From contig CAZWFZ010000001.1 of assembly GCA_964633455.1 (NCBI GenBank), forward strand, positions 1-30,271: a DNA stretch of 30,271 nt, given 5' to 3'. Origin of the DNA: an uncultured Candidatus Peribacteria bacterium. Lineage in GTDB: Bacteria > Patescibacteriota > Gracilibacteria > Absconditabacterales > Absconditicoccaceae. Position numbers and translations under genes: made by a program. The notes below the pieces were generated by a model. It was given only the letters and a program-made list of their open reading frames with translations, did not search any database and had not been told where the DNA came from. Shown piece after piece: positions 855 through 30,261 of this stretch (positions within the stretch are counted from its first letter, which is position 1; the number at the start of each line of letters is the position of its first letter).

Positions 855-1787
855 ATGCTCTGATTTTTCAAAAAATCTGCAGAATCCAAAGAATTTACTA
901 CTTTTGAAGAGTGAATTATGCTTCTTCGTAAATGAGGCTGGTCGGATCAACAGATTGAGGAATTTATGAGAATGTCTCATCAAGAAATAGAAAGGGAGGC
1001 TGAAACACAAAGAGAGTATGAGGCAGAACTCACTCCAGAACAAAGACAAAAAGGATTAGATCATTATTCACAAAGCATTTCTGATTTATTTACTGAATCC
1101 TGAAAATTTAATGGTAGAAAAACAATATATGACAAAAATAAGGAAGCACAAGAACTTAAAAAAGAGATAATTAAACAAAAAGCAAAAAAATGTGCAGACA
1201 TACTAGAAAAAGTTTTTTGGTCACTCAAAAGCGAAAGTCCACTTAAGAGCAGATTTGATGTATATGGCACAGACGCTTGATGGGATGCTATCACACAAGC
1301 AGTAGATAAGTCTTATGGTATGCGGGAAGCGGCGACTATATTTGACTGAGTGAAGTGACTTCTCGAACAAAAATGACTTTCAATGAATCGTCCCGCATAC
1401 GACTATTTTGTTCAAAAAGAAAGATGAGGTGGTGTATGGTTAGACGTAGGGATTATAGGTGAAGATACGATAAGGGAAAAAGAAATTGAAAAAAGAGCAG
1501 TCACCTGTGCTAAGGTACTTGAGCATATCTATACTGATCTATCAAAGGAGAATACCGAGGAAAATGAATTTGACCTCTATGAAAATCCCTTCGGTAAGGA
1601 TGCAATTTTGCAGGCATTAGCTTGATACGAAGATGGATTACGTACAGATGAAATATTAAAGAAACTTGTAACTCTACTCGAACAGAGAGGATATATCTGT
1701 TCTTGTCCTACTATTGACTATTTTATGGCAAAACAACTTAAAGGATATTTCTATGTATCCAAAAAGATTGTTGGAAAAGAGGTGTAG
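855..1787 (+). CDS. Hypothetical protein with two tandem ~95-aa homologous domains, 310 aa
   Basis: Open from ATG 855 to TAG 1785-1787 when TGA=Gly; absent from the standard-code track. An internal repeat is visible in the translation. Confidence 0.8.
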
Positions 1788-8902: not shown

Positions 8903-10210
8903 TTATGAAAAGAGATTGACGAGAACATTCACAAATACGTATGCTACGATCGCTATACCAATACCAATCACCGCGTAGAGTATCAAATCTTGTGCCGTTT
9001 TGAGTGACTTAGCATCTCCTCTAGAAGTCATCAAAAGGAAGCCACCATACAAGAGTACAAGGAATGCTACTAGTCCAATAATAATCCACAACCACTCATT
9101 GATCAACCTAAATATATTGAAAAAACTCTGATCATCTTCTGATGGAGTTAAAATATCCGTATTGGTAACAATATCCCTCTTCCATTCATGGGGAATTTCT
9201 ATTCTCAGATCTCCCCTATTTTTGTCTGTGCCATTAGTTGCACCAGCTGTAGGATTTCCAGCCGTTGCTGTACTTCACGCTGTCGCGGTTCATGCTGTCG
9301 CGGTTCATGCCGTTGCCGTTCAAGCAGTCGCGGTGCCTGCTGTTGCCGTTCATGCTGTTGCTGTGCCTGCTGTCGCTGTTCACGCCGTAGCTGTTCAGGC
9401 TGTCACCGTTCACGCTGTCGCTGTGCCTGCCGTTGCTGTTCACGCTGTCGCTGTTCACGCTGTCGCTGTGCCTGCTGTCGCTGTTCACGCTGTTGCCGTT
9501 CACGCTGTTGCTGTGCCTGCCGTTGCAGTTCATGCTGTCGCTGTTCACGCTGTCGCTGTGCCTGCTGTCGCGGTTCAAGCCGTTGCTGTGCCTGCCGTCG
9601 CTGTGCCTGCTGTCGCGGTTCAAGCCGTTGCTGTGCCTGCCGTCGCTGTGCCTGCTGTCGCGGTTCAAGCCGTTGCTGTGCCTGCCGTCGCCGTTCATGC
9701 TGTTGATCCTCCTCCATTTGAAGCTCAACCTCCACCAGGATTGGGGTCTTGACCATCTTCTATGCCGTCATTATCATCATCTGGGTCTTGATCGTCCGTG
9801 ATCCCATCACAATCTATATCATTGGGAGGTATACCACCTGCACCATACAGACAATATGCAAATTTCACCAATGTTTTATTAAGTTCTTCATCGAGCACAA
9901 TAAATCTTCCTGTCCCGCCGAAAGGACTAGGAACAAGTTGTGGTGGATAGAATCCTAATGCATGGGTGCCTTGTACAGGTCACAAAATAGTTAATCCCGA
10001 ATAGGGTGTGTACCGAAACAAGTTAAAGAAAAGTTGAGAAACAGGAGTCACATCATCCCAAAGCCCACCGTATGCTGCCAAATCTGCTGTATATGACTGT
10101 GCTTGCTCTATATAAAAAAGCGTAGGACCTGTATACACCGGCGCATTACTTGCGGAAGCAACTGAAAGGGAGCTTACCAAAGAGAGAAATCAGACAATCC
10201 AAAGTTTCAT
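8903..10210 (-). CDS. Secreted/membrane protein: signal peptide, Asp-rich DxDxDG motif, (TATAG)29 repeat, C-terminal TrbC/VirB2-like pilin domain, 435 aa
   Basis: Frame read continuously from ATG 10210 to TAA 8903-8905 with TGA=Gly. MKLWIVGFLSLVSSLSVASA start; DIDCDGITDDQDPDDDNDGIEDGQDPNP; two C-terminal hydrophobic helices around GGFLLMTSRGDAKSLKTAQ. Confidence 0.85.
9272..9703 (-). repeat. 15-bp coding tandem repeat, about 29 units (Thr-Ala-Thr-Ala-Gly)
   Basis: Gly codon every 15 nt from 9695-9697 to 9275-9277 (18 TGA, 11 GGC). Exact 45-bp higher-order copies at 9571-9615 and 9616-9660. Confidence 0.95.
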
Positions 10211-14273: not shown

Positions 14274-14546
14274 ATGTTGAAAACTTCTTATATTATCTTC
14301 TATTTTTTGGCTATAAATGTAGTTACCTTCATTATTTTTGGCATAGACAAGCGAAAAGCAAGGAATAATCACTCCCGCATCTCCGAAAAAGCACTTCTCA
14401 ACTACTGTTTACTTGGTGGGGGAGTCTGAGCATTGCTCGCAATGGAGTATTTCCGCCACAAAACCCAAAAATGATCATTCCTTCTCAAATATTATGTGAT
14501 AATTATTCTGTGGTTATTCTTAGTAATTTATAGTTTGCTTCAATAA
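14274..14546 (+). CDS. DUF1294 family small membrane protein, 90 aa
   Basis: FGIDKxKA, RISEKAL, LLGGGV[TGA]ALLAMEYFRHKTQK. Confidence 0.88.
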
Positions 14547-14576
14547 AGAGGAAGAGTTTATCTCTTCTTTTTTTGT

Positions 14577-17375
14577 ATGAACCCTACAAGTAGACAAAAA
14601 CAACTCTCGAAACATATATTCACCTTACTTATTCTTTCTCTATGTTGGTTTGGTGGAGGAGTTTTGAGTGATCTTATTATAAGTGAGGTCTACATCGACG
14701 GAACAGATGAATGGATTGAAATTACCAATAAGGGAGATTCATCTTTTGTAGGTACAGTGACGATAAGTGGTGCAAAGTCTTCGGTATTGACCTATACTTC
14801 ACTCTCTCTGGCTCCATGAGCCAGTTTTCTGATTGGAGACCAATGTAATATGTTACTCGATCCAACGTTCTGTCTCCGTGATCAAGGACTTTCTCTCAGT
14901 GATACCAAAGAACTCAAACTTCTCCTTACACAAATCAGAGATACAGGAGAAAGTGAGGAACAAATATTCCATTTTTCCCAAGACCTTGTAGTGAGCATAA
15001 ATGATAAAAAAACTTCTCTGTCGTGTACCTATCCAGTATGTGAACTATATTTTCCTACTCCTTTTTCCCAAAGTAGTAATGTAGTAGAAGGAATCATAGC
15101 CAACCCATGAAGAGTATATGAAAATAATGAATCACCAGAAATTACCTGAGAGAGTGTTCAACTAAATATACCTCTTTTCTCTTTTACTCATTCAGGGGAA
15201 CTACTCACTTTTTCCTTAGAAATGAAAGACACTCGCTGTGAACAATCATGCCTTTTGACCCTCACAGGAAATACCATTTTTTCTGTACCCGTACAAGTCA
15301 TGTCATGACAAACTTGGTCAACACACTTCACCATGACACCAAGTGGACAATCAGGAGAAACCTTGGTATGGAGCCTTTCTTCAACCAGTTGAGAAATTCT
15401 TAGTGGACAGTATACCATGACATTTTCTTTACCACCAACAGAAGATATTCCTACCAGTTGAACAGATATGCTTAGTGGTGGCCAAACGTGAGATAATGAA
15501 ACTGAAAATGAAACTCCCCAAAATCCAGACACCACTAGCACCACTGGATCGCAACAAAATATTCCTGACCCTATTCCTCTCCTTCCCAAAATTTCTCTCT
15601 CTGAAATTCATGCCACCAACGATACCTTTCCTGAATATCTTGAACTATTTATTTCCTCCCCTGCTAGTGGATCATTAACTATCCAGGGTGCGGGAAATGG
15701 AAAAGCGATCAAGACTATCTCACTTCAAATTATAAGTCCACAAAGACTCCTCATAACTTCAGAAGCTATTACTTGAGTTGAGAACCAATATATTCTTCCT
15801 AGCCTTTCACTAACCGATGGAGGTGAGGAGTTGACGCTACTTCGACAAAGTGGACACCAGATAGACAAAGCTGTCTATTCCGATGCAAAAAAATGATTTT
15901 CACAATATTTTTCTTCATTTTCTTGATTAGACAAAAATTATACACGTTTTTGACCTCCAACTCCGGGTATTAGCGAAGAGTTATATACTACTTTATTTTC
16001 ACCAACTTCTTGAACACCAGCTCCTCAATGTGAAATTATTTTTCAACATACCTCACCCTTGTATGCTCATCACAAAATCAACCTCCAAGCATCCTTCAAT
16101 AATAAACCACTTACCAATACTTCACCTTCCTATAGCTGTTTTTGGTCTCTTTCTTGAAGTGAGTTTACAGGATGTAACCCTTCTTTTCTCTCATTTTCAG
16201 AAGCCTGAGTATATCCTATTACCTTAGAAATATTCTCTCAAACTCCTAATACCCTTCTTTGTAAAACATTTTCTTCACTCAACCTTCCAGAGCTTCCAGA
16301 AATACAATCATGCAGAGCAGAATATTATAGCTGACTCTATAACAACCGAAAAGAAAAGTATGGTGTATTAACTACCGCAATTAGATCATACGGGTTTCGT
16401 GTGAGTGGAAGTTGAACTAATATAACCCTCACTTCTCCCCAACAACAAACAGAAACAAAACAAATTACCGGTACGCTAGTTACTTGACGAGTTACTATTA
16501 CCAAACTTCTTCCCAATCCTTTGGGTAAAGATACATGAACTGAATGGATTGAAATACAAACCACCACCTGAGAGGTTATTTCTAACTCACTTTTCCTTTC
16601 CAATGGAAATCGTTCAATTCGTTTTCCACCTTATGATTTAGTACCGGGTAAAATATATAGCTTTACCTGAAATCGATGACTTCTCAATAGTTCAGCGTGT
16701 ATTACGTTAGCATGATCATGAATTATCTATGATACCTACTGCTATACTACCCCAAAAGAATGAGTAATTCCTCCGAGGAGAACTGTCGAAAACACCACGT
16801 ATAGTACATCAATCAAAACAACTATCTCATTCATAGGGGATCAGGTTTGTGCGAAGCAGAAGGGACAAATTATAGTCTGCAAAGACCTCCTGATTACCAA
16901 AGCTGAGATAAAAGACCTCAAAAAATCTACAAAAAAAGTCACTTCACTTGAGAAAAAACTTACGACTGCTCTCAAACGGCGTGATAAACACAAGAAACTT
17001 TCTACCCAATTTACTGCTTACAAAAAAACGCAAAGCGCGAAAACTACTCAACTCAAACAACACTACAAACGCGCTACTTCTACTCTTTATGCGCTCAAGT
17101 CACACCTCCAGTCTAAGTGGATGATAGCGTATCAAGATCCTTATATTCTGAATATGTATAGGTTATTTTCCTTCTTTGAAGACCAAGAAACTCTTTCTAG
17201 ATCACTCTATGGTAAAGAACTATCTACACAAGATATTACCCAAATTCAAGAACTCTCTTTGGGTTCTACGGTCTATGACGATGCCTATATTCCAGCACTT
17301 ATCGAATACTTAGTACCAATTATACAATCATATACTCACAAGGCAACACCACTCCAACAGATAGTTCCTCCATAG
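14577..17375 (+). CDS. Large secreted protein with three lamin-tail-domain-like modules and a basic coiled-coil C-terminus, 932 aa
   Basis: One frame with many TGA and no TAA/TAG until 17373-17375. N-terminal TM; modules LIISEVYIDGTDEWIEITN, ISLSEIHATNDTFPEYLELF, ITKLLPNPLGKDTGTEWIEI. Confidence 0.82.
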
Positions 17376-17376
17376 A

Positions 17377-17404
17377 TTGACATTACAAGGTAACTTTGTA
17401 CAAT
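17377..17404 (+). promoter_or_regulatory. Sigma70-type promoter for the csaB-like/comEC pair
   Basis: TTGACA (17377-17382), 16 bp, TACAAT (17399-17404). Confidence 0.55.
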
Positions 17405-17432
17405 TGTTAGGCTATTTTAGTTTAACCTCCTG

Positions 17433-18332
17433 ATGGAATATTACCTCAAAGGGTATTATGGCTACAAAAATCTCTGAGATGAACTCCTCTTGTTTGGAGT
17501 ACTTTCTTGGTTGGCTAACGAAGGAGAGGCTAAAAAAATTGTCATCGAATCAGGAGATCCTATCCGACTTACGCAGTGGCTCAAAAGACATCATGCAATG
17601 ATGCCAGTTGGAGTAGAAGTATATTGTGTCGGAAATAATAGTTCAGATATCTATAAAAAATATCACTTAGTTTTGGGATGAGGAGAGGTGCTGACCGATG
17701 CAAGGAGATTTCCTTATGGTGGATGGAATTACCTTATCAAACATTTTTGGCGTATTGTATTTGGAAAATTTTCACTCCTTGGCTGAATTGGTCGCCCAAG
17801 AATATTGACTACCAGACTCCTCTATTGGTTTATGCTTCCGAGAGCTAAACATATAGTAGTGAGAGATAAAGACTCTTTTGCCCTAGCATACATGTATCAT
17901 GATAATCCAATTTTTAGTGGAGACTTTGCCTATCCTATCGTCGAAAAAATTTTGGTGGAGAAAGATGAATGAGTCCCCTACAATATCATTAATCTCAACC
18001 CCTACAAACGAGATAGTTCGAGCAAGAAAAAGGTTGCAGAAATTATAGAAAGTCGTGGTGGAGATTGGATATTTATTGCAGGAGATGTGGGTGAAGATAT
18101 TCCACTATATCGTGAGTTGCAGGTATCTATGGAAACTATTTCCTTGTTTGATTGGACTTCCCATACGCTACGCGAAACCATTTCATTCTTAGCATCTGCC
18201 AAATACGGTTTAGCTACGAGATTACATATTCTTCTTCTGTTGCAGTTTTTTCATATTCCCCTTTCTCCGCTCGTCTACCAAGAGAAAATTACCAAAGTAT
18301 TAGGTATTCAAGAAGATACACCCACCCTCTAA
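17433..18332 (+). CDS. Polysaccharide pyruvyltransferase (CsaB-like), 299 aa
   Basis: GYYGYKNL[TGA]DELLL, VLG[TGA]GEVLTD, IVVRDKDS; TAA at 18330-18332. Confidence 0.85.
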
Positions 18333-18348
18333 ATAATCTCTTACCTGT

Positions 18349-19755
18349 ATGCACCCAAATATTTTTTTCCTCAGACGAGGATATATATTTTTTGGTACAA
18401 TATATGTATTTATTCTTTTTTCTTTTATTCAAGAATGAAATATTTCTTGGCCCATTTTTCTTGGAGCAATACTCATAGTATGCTGATCTATACGAAGATT
18501 TCATCCACAGATTTTTTTCTCTTTGTGTCTTTGAATCATTCTCTGATGAGTAAGTTCTCGGACACATCATCAAAAAAGTCATACTCTACCACACTTTTCT
18601 CCCCAACACGTACTTACCTGAACAGTTAAACAAAAAACAGCAATTGATCGTCGAAACATTATTACCACACAAGGAAATATACTTCTTACTACAAGTATTC
18701 CACTAAATCCAGGTGATAGTATAGCATTTCTCCCTGCGTTGCCTTGGTATGAAAAATATCCTTCTGTGCAAGCAGAGAACTACCAAAAACGACTACATCT
18801 CAAATGATATCAAGCAAGTCTCACGACGTATTCGCTCTCCCTACTGTGAAAACAAAAACCCGCTCTCCAAACATCTATCAGAGAGTATCTCCTCGATCGT
18901 TTTACTTTAGTGTGATTCAATCCTACTACTCAAGCGCTCTTGCGTGGCATGATTTGGTGAGATACGTCATCGCTTACGCGCACCCAACTCGATCAATTCG
19001 TAGCTAGTGGACTCATACATATAGTAGCAGTCAGCGGGAGTAATATTGCTTTTATTCTTCTCTTGGGTGCATTCTTTTTTCGACGAGTACCGGTGTCTAT
19101 CAGGTATGTTTTACTAATGCTCCTGGTATTTGGGTATGCAACAATCTGTGGGTGGGAAAGTAGTGTTGTGAGAGCAGTGTGTTTTGGAATGATTACGCTG
19201 GGATCACTTCTCCTATGAAGACCCAAAATGATGTGGTCGCTCTTTTGGATGGTAGCAGTCAGTATGCTGTGGCGACACCCTGATATATTTTGGTATGATA
19301 GAGGACGATGATTGAGCTTTTCTGCAACAGGTACTATCATGCTTTTTGCTACGTTATTTCCCTCACCATCGTCACGATATATGAAATGAGTTACTACGCT
19401 CTTGCTCCCGACCATAGCGGCTACGTTGGGCACCTTTCCCCTGCTGTTACTCTTCAATAATACTTATACCCTCTGAGGTATTGTGGCTAATCTCCTCGCC
19501 TCACTCCTCCTCCCTTGGCTTATACGAGGAGCAATAATAGCTATTTTCTTGTGAGCACGAACTATATATATACCTTTTTTTCCCTGACTTCTCAATCGGT
19601 GAGTGGCAACTCTTTTTGGTATCAGTGAGAAAACTATTCACCTTTCTCCCCAATTATTTACCTCCCCAAATACTACATATAGTATTGCACTTGGTGTGAT
19701 TGTTTTGGTGTGGTGATGAGGTTATATATTTTATAAGACAAGGAGAAAACAATAA
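18349..19755 (+). CDS. comEC: ComEC/Rec2 competence channel (no C-terminal metallo-beta-lactamase domain), 468 aa
   Basis: Missed by the track. SGLIHIVAVSGSNIA, ESSVVRA, YDRG[CGA][TGA]LSFSAT, IVANLL; many TM segments; TAA at 19753-19755. Confidence 0.92.
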
Positions 19756-19783
19756 ATACATCATTACACATAAATATACTCAT

Positions 19784-19855
19784 CAAGGATGCCTGGGCTC
19801 GAACCAAGTCCTTCGGCTTCGGAGGCCGATGTGCTACCAGTAACACCTCATCCTT
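19784..19855 (-). tRNA. tRNA with CCG anticodon, probably charged with Trp (tRNA-Trp(CCG))
   Basis: AAGGATG/CATCCTT acceptor, G73, GTGT-TACTGGTA-GCAC D arm, TCGGC-CTCCGAA-GCCGA anticodon arm, CTTGG-TTCGAGC-CCAGG T arm. tRNA status is well supported; the Trp identity is inferred. Confidence 0.85.
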
Positions 19856-20009
19856 ATGTATACCATTATTGTGTACTGATTTTATATCTATAAGCAAACT
19901 AACGTCTTTATGTATTTTTGACTCAGCTCCATAAAATTTCCGCAATCATTTTTGTAGCTACTCTTGAGTATACATAAAGTGAAACTTTGAAGTTCTCAAG
20001 TACTTTTTT

Positions 20010-20385
20010 CCCTGTCATGTCAGACAGAAATAGTCGTCAACTAGTCGTGTTTTGTCAGTCATTATCTGTCTTATTTTAGTATTCGCGTTGTGTCTCGTGT
20101 CTTCTTTATTTTCCTCTGTCAATATCCTGGGGTGTTGAGGAAGTAAACACTCCTTCACAAACCATTGTTTAGCTCCCTGTGTATGAACATATTACACCTA
20201 TTTTCTTGGATATAGCAACTAGTTTATGTGTCACAGACTGGCTAGTTGTTCGTAATGTGTTGTAGAGTCGTTGTTGTTCCTAGCAAAACGACCAGTGCTT
20301 TTTTGTGTGCGTTGCGTAGCTCATTAACATCTAGAGACCTTGCATTATGTGAATGAATGCGTACAAACGTGCACAGGGAGCAATC
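20010..20385 (+). ncRNA. Candidate structured 5' leader RNA of the S-layer gene
   Basis: Nested helices: 20172-20185/20368-20381, 20186-20195/20252-20261, 20214-20224/20240-20250, 20267-20272/20287-20292, 20302-20313/20356-20367. Their deviations are G-U pairs in the plus sense. Confidence 0.6.
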
Positions 20386-20425
20386 CTTTCATTATTTCTT
20401 TTTATATTTCTTTAATATTTCTAGC

Positions 20426-23400
20426 ATGAATTTGAAAAAATTCGTAGCAGGATTAACAGCTATGGCTGTAGCTGCGTCTAACTTCCTCGGGGGAGTAGCA
20501 GTTGCCCAGCTCAATGATCCTGAGTTCACCACCGCTCTCAATTGGGCGTATGAGAATGAGATGACCAAGTACAACACGGAAAACGGTTTCATGCCTTATG
20601 CTAACATCACAAGAGAACAAGCTTCTAAATTTGTTGATGTGTATGCTATGACCAACTTGTGTCTTTCTCCTGATGCTGATATGGATTGTGATTTCAGCGA
20701 CATCCCTGCAGACGAGTCTTTGGACGAGTATGTAATGTTGTCTTGCCAACTTGGTCTCTTCAAGGGATCAAATGGTAAATTTATGCCAACAGCGCAACTT
20801 ACTAAAGCTCAATTGCTCGCGGTTCTCGTAAGAGCAATCAAAGCAGCAGCTGGTGAAGAGCCTGTATCTGAGGATGCAACTCCTTGGTGGTCTAACTACT
20901 TTACTGAAGCAAAAGAACTCGGCTTGACTAAGGAAACCAATGTAAACGCATTGGATAAGCCTGTGACAAGATATGAGACACTTTTGATGATGTATAGAGC
21001 TAGAATCGAAGATCAATGTAGCACTACTAGTGATGATATCACTGACTTGCTCAAAGATCTCTTCGGTGATGACACAGACACAGACAACGGTACTGGTGAT
21101 GTAGCTCCTACATCTGATGGAACTCTCGAAATCAGTTTGAGTCCTACGACTCCAGCTGGTGACACTGTTCCTGGTTTGTCTAATGTTGTTGTTGCTGAAT
21201 TCGAGGTAACTGCTACAACTGAAGCAGTTATGCTCAACACACTCGAACTCAGAAGATACGGCATCTCAAACGACGATGCAGTAACGAGAGTTAGTTTGTT
21301 CTTGGCAGATGGTACAAGATTGACCAACGGTAAGTCATTCAATAGTGACGATACTGCTCTCTTGAACTTGAGCCCAAGATTGGAAGTAGGTGTTGGTGAA
21401 ACTCACAAAATCAGAGTAATTGCTGAGATTGGTAGTTCTGATGGTCTTAATGGTGCTAACAACCAACAATTCGTTATTGGTATTGAGTCAGCTAATGACG
21501 TAACTACTAATGGTGATGTTGATGGTAACTTCCCAATCAAAGGTAATGAATTCGACGTAGGTGGTGAAAACGCTCCTGAAATCGAAATCACTCCTGATGG
21601 AACTATCTCAGACGTTCAATTGGGTGAGAAGGGTGCAGAAGTTGCTGCTCTTACACTCGACAACAACTCATCTGACGATATCGAGTTGACTCACATTACA
21701 TTCACTGATGGTGAAGGTAATATTGACGACGCTATGATGAACTTCTCACTTGAATGTGATAGCGAGGAAATTGCTACTACTGAAAACGCAAACGGTGACT
21801 ACTTGAGCTTTACATTCGATCCTTACACTGTCAAAGAAGGTGAGTCAATCGATTGTAATATCTACGCTGATGTAGTTGCTAGCGCTGGTGAAGCAATTGC
21901 ACTCTATATTGATGAGTCTCTCGACGTTATGGGTTCTTCTGACTTCGGTTATGGAATTGCAGTTGACGTTGATAACTATCAAGAAGCACAAGCACAAGTT
22001 GTTGATATTCTCGCTGGTGAGTTAACTCTCGTTGAGCAGAATCTCGATGCTGATGAAGTGAGAGAGGATCAAGACGATGTAGTTCTCGGTGAATTCAAAG
22101 TGATTGTGAACAATGGTCAAGCTTTGTACATTGAAGACATCTCTATGGATCTCTTCTCTGATGCTAATGCTAGCTGAGTTGCATTACAACTAATCTTCGA
22201 AAACTTTGAATTGTATGATGTAACACACAATACAAGATACGACTTGAACAACACAAACGGTACTGGTATTGTATTGAGCGAAGAGAACATCGATATCTAT
22301 CTCCCAGATTCTGGTGAGACTGTTCTCCAAGTTAGAGCTGATACAGTTACTACCTTCCCAGGTAACGTTGCTGATATGGTAACAGTTCATCTCGAACTCG
22401 ATGCTAACCCAGCTAACGGTGACTTGGTAATCAAAGAGTCTGATGACGATGAGCAAGTTATGGACCTCGTTCCATCATTCATCTCATTTGATGGTGTTGA
22501 TTTGGTAGATTCTTCTGTAGACGTTACTGAGATCACATTGTCTGATACTTCTGTAGTAAGAGGTGCTGAGGATGTAGTTGCTCTTCAATTCCAGGTTGAG
22601 ACTGATTCAGTTTCATCTGCATTCTTGCAAGAGATCGCTATCCAAGGTACAGTTAACTTCAACACAGACGTTGTATCTGCAGTTTCATTGTTCAGAGGTA
22701 CTCCTAGTGGAACACACACTCTCGTAGAGTCAAATGGTGGATTTGATATCAATTCAAACTCTATCACCTTTGATAACTTCGATGAGATTGAAGTTCCTCT
22801 CAACTCTACTCAACCGTTCTTCGTAACGATTGATGTAGTTGATGATCCTATGAACGTTGGTTTAACTCTCGCATTGAGTGTTGATCAGACTCCACTTCCA
22901 AAGCTTGATGATGACAACAACAATGATATGGATGTTAATGTAACAAGTGCTGGTTCTAGAACTATGACTATCAGTAACTTCGGTACATTGGCTTGTGACT
23001 TCGACGTAAATGACGAAGAAACAGACATTCCTTCTATCGTTCTTGGTGGTGAAGAATCTAACTACTTGGCTAGCTTTGACTTCAATGCTCAAAACGAAGA
23101 CATTTGGGTAAGAGATATCTTGATTACTGCTTCTCCTGCTCTCAATTTCGTATCTGCATTTGAAGAAGTTATCTTGTCTGATGAAGATGGTAACGAATTG
23201 TACAGAGAAATAGTTACTTCTAATGCTATGTACCTCAATGAAATTGAGACTGCTAGCGGTGCTGAATTCATCATCACTGAAGGTAGTACTAACTTGTATG
23301 TATCATTGGTTGCATCTATCATCGGTAAAAACCAAAATGGTGTAGAAGCTGGTGCTTACAACCTCTCTATGAGTGTTCAACAAGCTGAAGGTGTAAGTTC

Positions 23401-24227: not shown

Positions 24228-24537
24228 TGTATAAGCACTGTTGTTGAAAGTTAATCCCGCAGCTTACAGCAAGCGGGATCATTGCATCAATCATACTTCG
24301 TTATGAAGATGCAAAGATTCTTACTTCTATAAGTATTCGCATACCTTCGGTATACTTAACTTATAGAGGGTGATTTAAGGTTGAATAAGTGTTGGTAGGT
24401 ATAGTCGTTGAGATAAGGGTGGTTACCTCAAGGGTAATAAATGGAAGTAAGGCAAACCCGCTGACGCCTCCCTTATCAATAATACTGTTACTCGATCTGT
24501 CACATCATTTGACCTGGTTCGTATCCTGATTATATGC
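24228..24537 (+). ncRNA. Candidate ~300-nt structured RNA of unassigned family
   Basis: Four helical domains, two UUCG loops (24297-24300, 24346-24349), a long rod 24378-24515 with G-U pairs; no ORF. Confidence 0.55.
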
Positions 24538-25359: not shown

Positions 25360-25360
25360 A

Positions 25361-25429
25361 AATCCCCCGGCTCGCTTCACTCGCCACCCTACCCATACGG
25401 GCACCGAGGCCTTTCTAAAAGGGGGAAAC
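25361..25429 (+). repeat. Intergenic palindromic repeat (long variant)
   Basis: 47 bp identical in inverted orientation to 7054-7100; begins 1 nt after the LRR stop codon. Confidence 0.92.
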
Positions 25430-28675: not shown

Positions 28676-28717
28676 TGAGAATTGAGAGTTAAGAAATAAG
28701 ATTTAAGAATTAAGAAA
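28676..28717 (+). repeat. Six degenerate 7-bp tandem repeats
   Basis: TGAGAAT TGAGAGT TAAGAAA TAAGATT TAAGAAT TAAGAAA. Confidence 0.65.
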
Positions 28718-28864
28718 CTATACTCCAGAAAATGGAACTTATGAAAATACTACAAAAGGCACCAAGGAGTACTATGTATGCTTTTGAGGGTGCTAAAATA
28801 TTTTATTCAAGCATTTCTGCCGAGTAGTCCAATTTTAAAAATTGTTTGACTCCAAGGCAAAAAC

Positions 28865-30224: not shown

Positions 30225-30261
30225 CAAATATACAAATAATCAAATATCCAAAATACAAATT
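30225..30261 (+). repeat. Degenerate ~8-bp CAAATA tandem repeats
   Basis: CAAATATA CAAATAAT CAAATATC CAAAATA CAAATT; reverse complement of the TATTTG unit at 25455-25486. Confidence 0.5.

What the first reader, a model, noticed from the sequence alone, without database searches (positions are those of the whole stretch)
19784..19855. A CCG-anticodon tRNA on a tRNA-Trp-like body: likely hardware for CGG recoding
Seen: anticodon loop CU-CCG-AA, A1-U72, G73, and U at position 20. Established: tRNA-Arg(CCG) normally has G37 and the A20 identity element, whereas tRNA-Trp has loop CU-CCA-AA, A1-U72 and G73; such tRNAs were invoked for Absconditabacterales by Shulgina and Eddy 2021. CGG codons here are few. 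Those in ComEC (18559-18561, 19597-19599) lie at membrane-helix positions suiting Trp, but 1323-1325 aligns near an Arg in the internal repeat, so CGG=Trp is less proven locally than CGA=Trp. Automated tools would label this tRNA Arg.
Basis: partly seen in the sequence, partly recalled or inferred. Interest (0 to 1): 0.7.

Follow-up and report, generated by a model that had tools for sequence, protein, structure and literature searches.

The report
Tryptophan-type tRNA reading CGG (known)
This is a real tRNA gene from an uncultivated wastewater SR1/Absconditabacterales bacterium that almost certainly puts tryptophan, not arginine, at the rare codon CGG. The genome-wide codon evidence here is strong, but this code change and this tRNA type were published in 2021.

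Summary
The tRNA is real, but it lies on the minus strand (19784-19855; Rfam 53.6 bits). It has anticodon CCG, A1-U72, G73, U20 and a 5-bp anticodon stem. ARAGORN labels it Arg.

The 1.22-Mb genome has a tRNA-Gly(UCA), and its same-genus relatives are labelled Absconditabacterales.

I tested what CGG means by codon correspondence:
- **Same-genus genome:** of 260 CGG sites, 85 stay CGG, 75 are TGG, 51 are CGA and 19 are CGY/AGR.
- **Same-family genome:** of 21 sites, 12 are TGG, 2 CGA, 4 Phe/Tyr and 0 Arg.
- **Standard-code outgroup that carries a canonical tRNA-Arg(CCG):** of 8 sites, 3 are TGG, 4 Phe/Tyr and 1 AGG.

CGA behaves the same way, so CGG, CGA and UGG form one synonymous Trp set.

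Eleven genera have orthologous tRNA(CCG) genes. A1-U72, G73 and U20 are invariant in them, and 11 of 22 stem pairs show compensatory changes.

The "Trp-like body" holds only at the identity positions. Whole-sequence models do not separate Trp from Arg (45.0 vs 46.5 bits). The nearest paralogue is the Trp-type tRNA(UCG).

This is the reassignment of Shulgina and Eddy 2021, and this scan has already met it on other genomes. The incremental points are CGA at 37% of Trp codons in a GC-41% genome and the high turnover of CGG. Charging has not been tested.

The parts
19784..19855 (-). tRNA(CCG), Trp-type by identity elements: A1-U72, G73, U20 (no A20), loop CU-CCG-AA, 5-bp anticodon stem, 4-nt variable loop, A8/U14, no encoded CCA
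   Evidence: Rfam 53.6 bits; ARAGORN. It is conserved in 11 genera, with compensatory changes in 11 of 22 pairs and an invariant A1-U72/G73. No difference inside the gene is listed for a roughly 90%-identical strain from another study's activated-sludge run, while the flanks differ.
19820..19822 (-). Anticodon CCG (reads CGG on the + strand)
   Evidence: Sequence; Infernal alignment
18349..19752 (+). ComEC-like competence membrane protein upstream of the tRNA, convergent with it; carries 2 CGG and 11 CGA codons
   Evidence: Pfam PF03772, 7.4e-32; codon list and homologue columns
18559..18561 (+). CGG codon 71 of ComEC; the homologue column is W 8, L 8, F 6 of 37
19597..19599 (+). CGG codon 417 of ComEC; the homologue column is hydrophobic (L 9, F 6, G 4, V 4)
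10013..10015 (-). CGG codon 66 of the pilin-like protein; the 96%-identical same-genus orthologue has TGG here
1323..1325 (+). CGG codon 157 of an orphan protein (855-1784); no informative homologue. It aligns to Leu in a weak internal repeat.

Best explanation
The gene encodes a functional tRNA with anticodon CCG that the cell's single TrpRS charges with tryptophan, so that CGG is translated as Trp.

The organism is an Absconditabacterales (SR1) bacterium that reads UGA as Gly and both CGA and CGG as Trp.

Division of labour:
- tRNA-Trp(CCA) reads UGG.
- A Trp-type tRNA(UCG) reads CGA, and probably CGG weakly by wobble.
- This tRNA(CCG) is the cognate Watson-Crick reader of CGG.
- Arg keeps CGU/CGC through tRNA(GCG) and AGA/AGG through tRNA(UCU) and tRNA(CCU).

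ArgRS is kept off this tRNA by the loss of A20, and TrpRS is attracted by G73 and A1-U72.

CGG is the only single-step synonymous bridge between UGG and CGA, because the other path runs through UGA = Gly. This tRNA therefore keeps that path neutral.

Shown here: the gene and its conservation, the identity positions, and the Trp meaning of CGG and CGA.

Inferred, not shown: charging by TrpRS, rejection by ArgRS, expression, and how CGG reading is shared between the two tRNAs.
For: - **Gene.** Full-length tRNA, 53.6 bits.
- **Conservation.** Orthologues in 11 genera of the family keep the cloverleaf. 11 of 22 pairs have compensatory changes, while A1-U72 and G73 are invariant and A20 is absent in all 11. 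Four more family genomes have a tRNA(CCG): G015 by ARAGORN, anticodon only, and three by pattern, ending U72-G73.
- **Contrast with real Arg tRNAs.** All 12 canonical Arg tRNAs of the clade have G1 and A20. A standard-code outgroup has a textbook tRNA-Arg(CCG) with G1-C72, A20 and A73-CCA.
- **Code, same genus.** In a genome with median 90.7% protein identity, CGG pairs with CGG 85, TGG 75, CGA 51 and CGY/AGR 19 of 260 sites. TGG pairs with CGA 110 and CGG 64. AGA and CGT almost never pair with TGG or CGR (29 of 6108).
- **Code, same family.** In a GC-28% genome, CGG pairs with TGG 12, CGA 2, Phe/Tyr 4 and Arg 0 of 21. CGA pairs with TGG 96, Phe/Tyr 36 and Arg 0 of 180.
- **Code, outgroup.** CGG pairs with TGG 3, Phe/Tyr 4 and AGG 1 of 8; CGA pairs with TGG 30 of 73. 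The outgroup's own CGA and CGG pair mostly with this genome's Arg and Lys codons (CGA: 99 Arg and 34 Lys of 192; CGG: at least 29 Arg and 9 Lys of 62).
- **Single sites.** The only Trp-set codon in TrpRS is a CGA at a column that is W in 21 of 21 homologues.
- **Local sites.** 10013-10015 is CGG here and TGG in the relative. ComEC CGG71 falls in a W/L/F column.
- **Enzymes.** One TrpRS and one ArgRS gene are present.
- **Taxon.** tRNA-Gly(UCA) is present, and the same-genus records are named Absconditabacterales.
- **Literature.** This reassignment and the Trp-type criteria are published (PMC8629427; PMC13092985).
Against: - No aminoacylation, proteomic or tRNA-expression data exist.
- No sigma-70-like promoter or terminator was found beside the gene.
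- Whole-sequence models built from the clade's Trp and Arg tRNAs do not separate this tRNA (45.0 vs 46.5 bits). Across the 11 orthologues the Trp model wins 6 and the Arg model 5.
- C35 and G36 are ArgRS determinants in E. coli, and G73 is compatible with Arg. Rejection by ArgRS therefore rests on the missing A20 alone (established knowledge, not tested here).
- Position 8 is A and position 14 is U, where U8/A14 is usual.
- 19 of 260 CGG sites pair with Arg codons in the close relative. These are expected single-step non-synonymous neighbours, but a minor Arg reading cannot be excluded.
- One 1.8-kb contig of the assembly uses CGG and CGA at invariant Arg positions. It is probably a contaminant.
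Confidence: 0.88

Rival explanations
1. The tRNA is still charged, wholly or partly, with arginine, so CGG is ambiguous (Arg and Trp). The Trp signal at CGG would then come from wobble reading by the Trp-type tRNA(UCG).
For: C35 and G36 are Arg identity elements, and G73 is acceptable to ArgRS (criteria quoted). The Arg model scores the tRNA as well as the Trp model does. 19 of 260 CGG sites pair with Arg codons in the close relative.
Against: A20 is invariant in all 12 canonical Arg tRNAs of the clade and absent from all 11 tRNA(CCG) orthologues, whereas A1-U72 and G73 are invariant as in tRNA-Trp. In the family-level comparison CGG pairs with TGG about as often as UGG itself does: 12 of 21 against 130 of 257. 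There is thus no sign that CGG is avoided at conserved Trp sites.
Confidence: 0.06
2. The gene is dispensable or decaying, and CGG is read in practice by tRNA(UCG) alone.
For: CGG is rare (13 per 10,000 codons). tRNA(CCG) evolves faster than tRNA(UCG): 62-86% against 83-100% identity across genera. It has an odd A8/U14. BLAST found it in neither same-genus assembly.
Against: Both same-genus assemblies simply break in this region, so its absence there is an assembly gap. The cloverleaf is kept by compensatory changes in 11 genera. U8/A14 becoming A8/U14 is itself a two-sided change. No difference inside the gene is listed for a diverged strain whose flanks differ.
Confidence: 0.05
3. The tRNA is glutamine-type, as proposed for CGG in Peptacetobacter.
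For: It has a weak 1:72 pair, A37, G73, no A20, G3-C70 and G10, which are part of the Gln-type rule quoted.
Against: G2-C71 and G38 are missing (A2-U71 and A38 instead). CGG pairs with CAG at only 6 of 260 sites, against 75 for TGG.
Confidence: 0.01

Closest known systems
Trp-type tRNA(CCG) and tRNA(UCG) of Absconditabacteria/Absconditabacterales, with CGA and CGG reassigned Arg to Trp on top of UGA = Gly (Shulgina and Eddy 2021, eLife 10:e71402, PMC8629427; catalogued again in PMC13092985)
   Same: Same clade, same anticodon, the published Trp-type criteria are met (G73, no A20, A1-U72), same 5-bp anticodon stem, the same partner tRNAs (UCG Trp-type, GCG Arg-type, no ACG), and the same codon meaning shown here genome-wide.
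   Different: This genus has GC 41% and CGA at 64 per 10,000 codons (37% of Trp codons), with CGG at 13. The published range is GC 0.26-0.38 and CGA below 37 per 10,000, though that was measured on Pfam columns, so the figures are not strictly comparable. Nothing differs in kind.
Canonical bacterial tRNA-Arg(CCG)
   Same: Anticodon CCG, C35 and G36, and A37 as in this clade's Arg tRNAs. The anticodon arm and the first three variable-loop bases (UCGGCCUCCGAAGCCGAAGG) are identical to the outgroup's tRNA-Arg(CCG).
   Different: A1-U72 instead of G1-C72, U20 instead of the invariant A20, a 4-nt instead of a 5-nt variable loop, and CGG not used at Arg positions.
The genome's own tRNA-Trp(CCA)
   Same: A1-U72, G73, U20, and a loop CU-CCN-AA that differs only at position 36.
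   Different: Only 50% identical outside the anticodon, a different D-stem (GUGU against GCUC), and a 4-nt against a 5-nt variable loop. The tree groups it with tRNA-Trp only weakly (UFBoot 50 or less).
CGG to Trp in Anaerococcus and Onthovivens/RFN20, and CGG to Gln in Peptacetobacter (same 2021 paper)
   Same: A dedicated tRNA(CCG) with non-Arg identity captures a rare CGG codon.
   Different: Those lineages lack tRNA(UCG) and keep CGA as Arg. Here CGA is reassigned too and is the commoner of the two codons.

Membership tests
Trp-type tRNA(CCG) of Absconditabacterales (criteria of Shulgina and Eddy 2021) | G73 discriminator | tested here: met
   Infernal alignment; invariant in 11 of 11 orthologues
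Trp-type tRNA(CCG) of Absconditabacterales (criteria of Shulgina and Eddy 2021) | No A20 in the D-loop | tested here: met
   D-loop UACUGGUA gives U20. All 11 orthologues have U after G18-G19. All 12 Arg tRNAs have A20.
Trp-type tRNA(CCG) of Absconditabacterales (criteria of Shulgina and Eddy 2021) | A/G1:U72 (supporting element) | tested here: met
   A1-U72 in 11 of 11
Trp-type tRNA(CCG) of Absconditabacterales (criteria of Shulgina and Eddy 2021) | Host is an Absconditabacterales genome that reads UGA as Gly | tested here: met
   tRNA-Gly(UCA); TGA pairs with GGN codons; same-genus records are named Candidatus Absconditabacterales
Trp-type tRNA(CCG) of Absconditabacterales (criteria of Shulgina and Eddy 2021) | CGG occupies Trp columns, not Arg columns | tested here: met
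   Of 260, 21 and 8 CGG sites in three comparisons, the partners are TGG, CGR or aromatic codons in 212, 18 and 7, and Arg codons in 19, 0 and 1
Trp-type tRNA(CCG) of Absconditabacterales (criteria of Shulgina and Eddy 2021) | 5-bp anticodon stem (PMC13092985) | tested here: met
   U27-A43, C28-G42, G29-C41, G30-C40, C31-G39
Trp-type tRNA(CCG) of Absconditabacterales (criteria of Shulgina and Eddy 2021) | Aminoacylation with Trp by TrpRS | not testable with these tools
   Only the presence of a single trpS and a single argS could be shown
Canonical tRNA-Arg(CCG) | A20 together with C35 and G/U36, and CGG at Arg positions | tested here: not met
   C35 and G36 are present, but A20 is absent and CGG is not at Arg positions
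tRNA-Trp isotype by whole-sequence model (stand-in for tRNAscan-SE isotype scores) | Higher score with a clade Trp model than with a clade Arg model | tested here: inconclusive
   Trp model 45.0 bits against Arg model 46.5 bits for this gene. Among the 11 orthologues the Trp model is higher in 6 and the Arg model in 5.
Gln-type tRNA(CCG) (Peptacetobacter) | Weak 1:72 pair, A37, A/G73 and no A20, plus G2-C71 and G38; CGG in Gln columns | tested here: not met
   The basic rule is met, but the tRNA has A2-U71 and A38, and CGG pairs with CAG at 6 of 260 sites against 75 for TGG

The most novel reading that the evidence does not exclude
The two tRNAs that carry the reassignment, tRNA(CCG) and tRNA(UCG), are paralogues of one another (UFBoot 99). 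They form a lineage of their own that is neither a recent copy of tRNA-Trp(CCA) nor a remodelled tRNA-Arg.

This genus has gone well past the rare-codon stage. At GC 41%, 44% of its Trp codons are CGR, with CGA acting as the sink and CGG as a fast-turnover bridge: 33% of CGG codons are retained between congeners, against 80% for CGA and 87% for UGG.

If so, the dedicated tRNA(CCG) is kept to make the UGG-CGG-CGA path neutral rather than to serve a standing stock of CGG codons.
Probability: 0.45. Interest if true: 0.4.

Novelty: already known. Interest (0 to 1): 0.25.

Why it matters
Sense-codon reassignments in bacteria are very rare, and standard pipelines mistranslate them. ARAGORN calls this tRNA Arg. 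Table 25 would put Arg at about 1,800 Trp positions in this genome's native ORFs, which is 44% of all Trp codons. The public protein collection even holds this window's ComEC with UGA read as Trp.

For this genome the practical result is a code table: UGA = Gly, and CGA and CGG = Trp. It also flags at least one assembly contig that follows the standard code.

Scientifically the case adds no new principle. It does offer a well-populated example of a reassigned codon that has rebounded in frequency. It also offers a defined set for a charging experiment: one tRNA(CCG), one tRNA(UCG), one TrpRS and one ArgRS.

Tried and rejected
1. **Isotype scoring.** I built covariance models from 21 clade tRNA-Trp(CCA) and 12 clade Arg tRNAs. 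The scores do not discriminate.
2. **tRNA phylogeny for the origin.** CCG+UCG is solid (UFBoot 99). Its attachment to tRNA-Trp(CCA) is not (50 or 17), and the nesting of UCG inside CCG has only 76-89 support. A second tRNA(UCG) sequence type also exists in other genera. I therefore claim no origin and no order of events.
3. **Promoter and terminator scan around the gene.** Nothing found.
4. **Expression.** The one RNA run with a share of the words covers only 20282-20400 and not the tRNA, so it is no evidence either way.
5. **Absence of tRNA(CCG) from the two same-genus genomes**. Rejected as evidence of loss. G002 contig 17 ends at about window 14491 and G001 contig 8 starts at about 21852, so both assemblies break here.
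6. **Adenylosuccinate lyase, chosen as a conserved CGG-rich test protein.** Its CGG and CGA sit at invariant Arg positions. However, the gene is TGA-free, lies on a 1.8-kb contig, is 56-60% identical to its best database homologues (those named are Bacteroidota), and has no homologue in three relatives. I treat it as a contaminant or foreign gene and not as counter-evidence.
7. **ComEC homologues.** They are only 24-36% identical, so those columns are weak support only.
8. **First pattern search for tRNAs in other genera.** It used a wrong spacer and returned noise; I repeated it correctly.

Full report
**Observation.** Infernal/Rfam finds a full-length tRNA at 19784-19855 on the minus strand (53.6 bits, E 4.9e-9). 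ARAGORN calls it tRNA-Arg(ccg).

The RNA has these features:
- a 7-bp acceptor stem that starts with A1-U72, and G73;
- D-stem GUGU/GCAC and D-loop UACUGGUA, so U20 and no A20;
- a 5-bp anticodon stem and loop CU-CCG-AA;
- a 4-nt variable loop, a normal T-arm and no encoded CCA.

The argument from G37 does not hold in this clade. The genome's real Arg tRNAs and an outgroup's canonical tRNA-Arg(CCG) all have A37.

**Genome.** The window is contig 1 of a 1.22-Mb, 187-contig, GC-41% assembly.
- It has a tRNA-Gly(UCA), a tRNA-Trp(CCA) and a second odd tRNA with anticodon UCG that also has A1-U72, G73 and no A20.
- It has three tRNAs with A20 (GCG, UCU, CCU).
- The TrpRS of same-genus genomes lies on records named Candidatus Absconditabacterales.
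- There is one trpS and one argS.

**What CGG means.** I predicted ORFs with TGA read as sense. I then aligned them, with CGG and CGA masked, to three other genomes fetched piecewise. For each codon I tallied the codon opposite it wherever the flanks were conserved.

| Codon in this genome | Same genus (G002; 665 ORFs, median 90.7% identity) | Same family (G015; GC 28%, median 40% identity) | Outgroup (G031) |
|---|---|---|---|
| CGG | 260 sites: CGG 85, TGG 75, CGA 51, CGY/AGR 19 | 21 sites: TGG 12, CGA 2, Phe/Tyr 4, Arg 0 | 8 sites: TGG 3, Phe/Tyr 4, AGG 1 |
| CGA | 1344 sites: CGA 1074, TGG 103, CGG 55, Arg codons 37 | 180 sites: TGG 96, Phe/Tyr 36, Arg 0 | 73 sites: TGG 30 |
| TGG | 2060 sites: TGG 1794, CGA 110, CGG 64 | 257 sites: TGG 130 | 92 sites: TGG 40 |
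| AGA and CGT | pair with TGG or CGR at 29 of 6108 sites | – | – |

- In the family comparison CGG and CGA behave just like TGG.
- G031 belongs to the same class but uses the standard code: TGA falls at 2 per 10,000 aligned codons.
- G031 carries a textbook tRNA-Arg(CCG).
- G031's own CGA and CGG pair mostly with this genome's Arg and Lys codons, chiefly AGA and CGT.

Two single sites agree. The only Trp-set codon of TrpRS is a CGA at a column that is W in 21 of 21 homologues. In the window, CGG 10013-10015 is TGG in the 96%-identical orthologue.

The two ComEC CGG codons fall in W/L/F and hydrophobic columns. CGG, CGA and UGG are thus one synonymous set, and that set is Trp.

**Is the tRNA functional, and what is its identity?** BLAST, ARAGORN and a pattern search find a tRNA(CCG) in at least 15 of 25 genomes of the family.
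- In the 11 aligned orthologues, 11 of 22 stem pairs show compensatory changes.
- A1-U72 and G73 never change, and position 20 is always U.
- The three orthologues found by pattern also end in U72-G73. For G015 only the anticodon was read.
- All 21 tRNA-Trp(CCA) genes share A1, U72, G73 and U20.
- All 12 Arg tRNAs share G1 and A20.
- In an activated-sludge run from another study, a roughly 90%-identical strain shows no listed difference inside the tRNA gene, while the flanks differ or are replaced.

By the published rule (G73, no A20, A/G1:U72 as support) this is a Trp-type tRNA.

**The 'body'.** Outside the anticodon the tRNA is 50% identical to the resident tRNA-Trp(CCA), 55% to tRNA(UCG), 59% to tRNA-Arg(GCG) and 61% to tRNA-Lys(CUU).
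- A maximum-likelihood tree of 96 tRNAs joins the family's CCG and UCG tRNAs with UFBoot 99, and it places the outgroup's tRNA-Arg(CCG) outside that clade. It attaches the pair to tRNA-Trp(CCA) with 50 or less.
- Covariance models built from the clade's Trp and Arg tRNAs score this gene 45.0 and 46.5 bits.

So only the identity positions are Trp-like, and the origin of the pair is unresolved.

**Mechanism (inferred).** TrpRS charges three isoacceptors:
- CCA for UGG;
- UCG for CGA, and by wobble for CGG;
- CCG for CGG.

ArgRS is excluded by the missing A20. CGG is rare (13 per 10,000 codons) and turns over fast: 33% is retained between congeners, against 80% for CGA and 87% for UGG. CGG is also the only synonymous single-step link between UGG and CGA.

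**Known or new?** This is the reassignment predicted with Codetta for Absconditabacteria. That work includes the tRNA(UCG)/tRNA(CCG) pair and the explanation of why the two codons move together (PMC8629427). The 5-bp anticodon stem was catalogued in PMC13092985. Earlier reports of this scan reached the same verdict on other genomes.

What goes beyond the published range is quantitative.
- GC is 41%.
- In native ORFs, CGA is at 64, CGG at 13 and UGG at 97 per 10,000 codons. That is 37%, 7% and 56% of Trp codons.
- The family member G015 has 8, 3 and 79.

**Caveats.**
- There are no charging, proteomic or expression data.
- The two same-genus assemblies break around this locus, so gene presence in the genus rests on this assembly and on metagenome contigs.
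- The assembly contains at least one standard-code contig.
- Kin are not independent, so the Fisher P values overstate significance.

Noticed in passing
G000 contig 169 (locus L084), outside the window: A 1.8-kb contig encodes an adenylosuccinate lyase. It has no in-frame TGA, and its CGG357 and CGA288/360/369 sit at positions that are Arg in 119 of 119 homologues. The best database homologues are 56-60% identical (those named are Bacteroidota), and there is no homologue in three relatives. It is probably a contaminant contig, or a foreign gene, that follows the standard code.
   Followed up: partly
window about 24273-24332, 25360-25427, 28677-28739, 30225-30260: Short intergenic stretches of 30-60 nt recur on many contigs of both same-genus genomes at 75-98% identity. 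This looks like a dispersed repeat family of unknown role.
   Followed up: no
G000 contig 68, 2638-2909; G002 contig 2, 65023-65427: Partial copies of tRNA-Trp(CCA) lie beside the gene. In G000 the first 21 nt occur twice more upstream. In G002 the match is split, with two extra copies of the 3' end. This resembles the footprints of elements that integrate into a tRNA gene.
   Followed up: no
window about 14500-21850: Both same-genus assemblies have contig ends on either side of this stretch, which holds the LTD-domain protein, a pyruvyl transferase, ComEC, tRNA(CCG) and the start of a 1254-aa protein. A related strain in another metagenome has 216 other letters in place of 19541-19780. The region looks strain-variable.
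   Followed up: partly
G031 (loci L096-L135), same class: This relative uses the standard code: TGA is at noise level in aligned codons, and CGA and CGG sit at Arg positions. Its tRNA-Arg(CCG) and tRNA-Trp(CCA) genes encode their CCA ends. The class therefore contains both standard-code and recoded lineages.
   Followed up: partly
G003, G016, G018, G023, G024 (places listed): These genera carry a second sequence type of tRNA(UCG), with loop and stem CUUCGGAACCG, that also ends in U72-G73. It differs from the CUUCGGCACCUC type of this genome's group.
   Followed up: no
window 19842 and 19848 (tRNA positions 14 and 8): This tRNA has A8 and U14 where most orthologues have U8 and A14. Its two closest orthologues have U8 and U14. 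This looks like a two-step swap of the 8-14 tertiary pair.
   Followed up: no
window 18349-19752: The public protein collection holds this ComEC translated with TGA as Trp at 19 positions. In this organism TGA pairs with Gly codons, so the database copy is mistranslated.
   Followed up: partly
G000 contig 92 (locus L035): Outside the genus, the pattern search found TrpRS relatives at only 40-46% identity, and many of them are Bacteroidota records. The search method is biased, so no inference is drawn.
   Followed up: no
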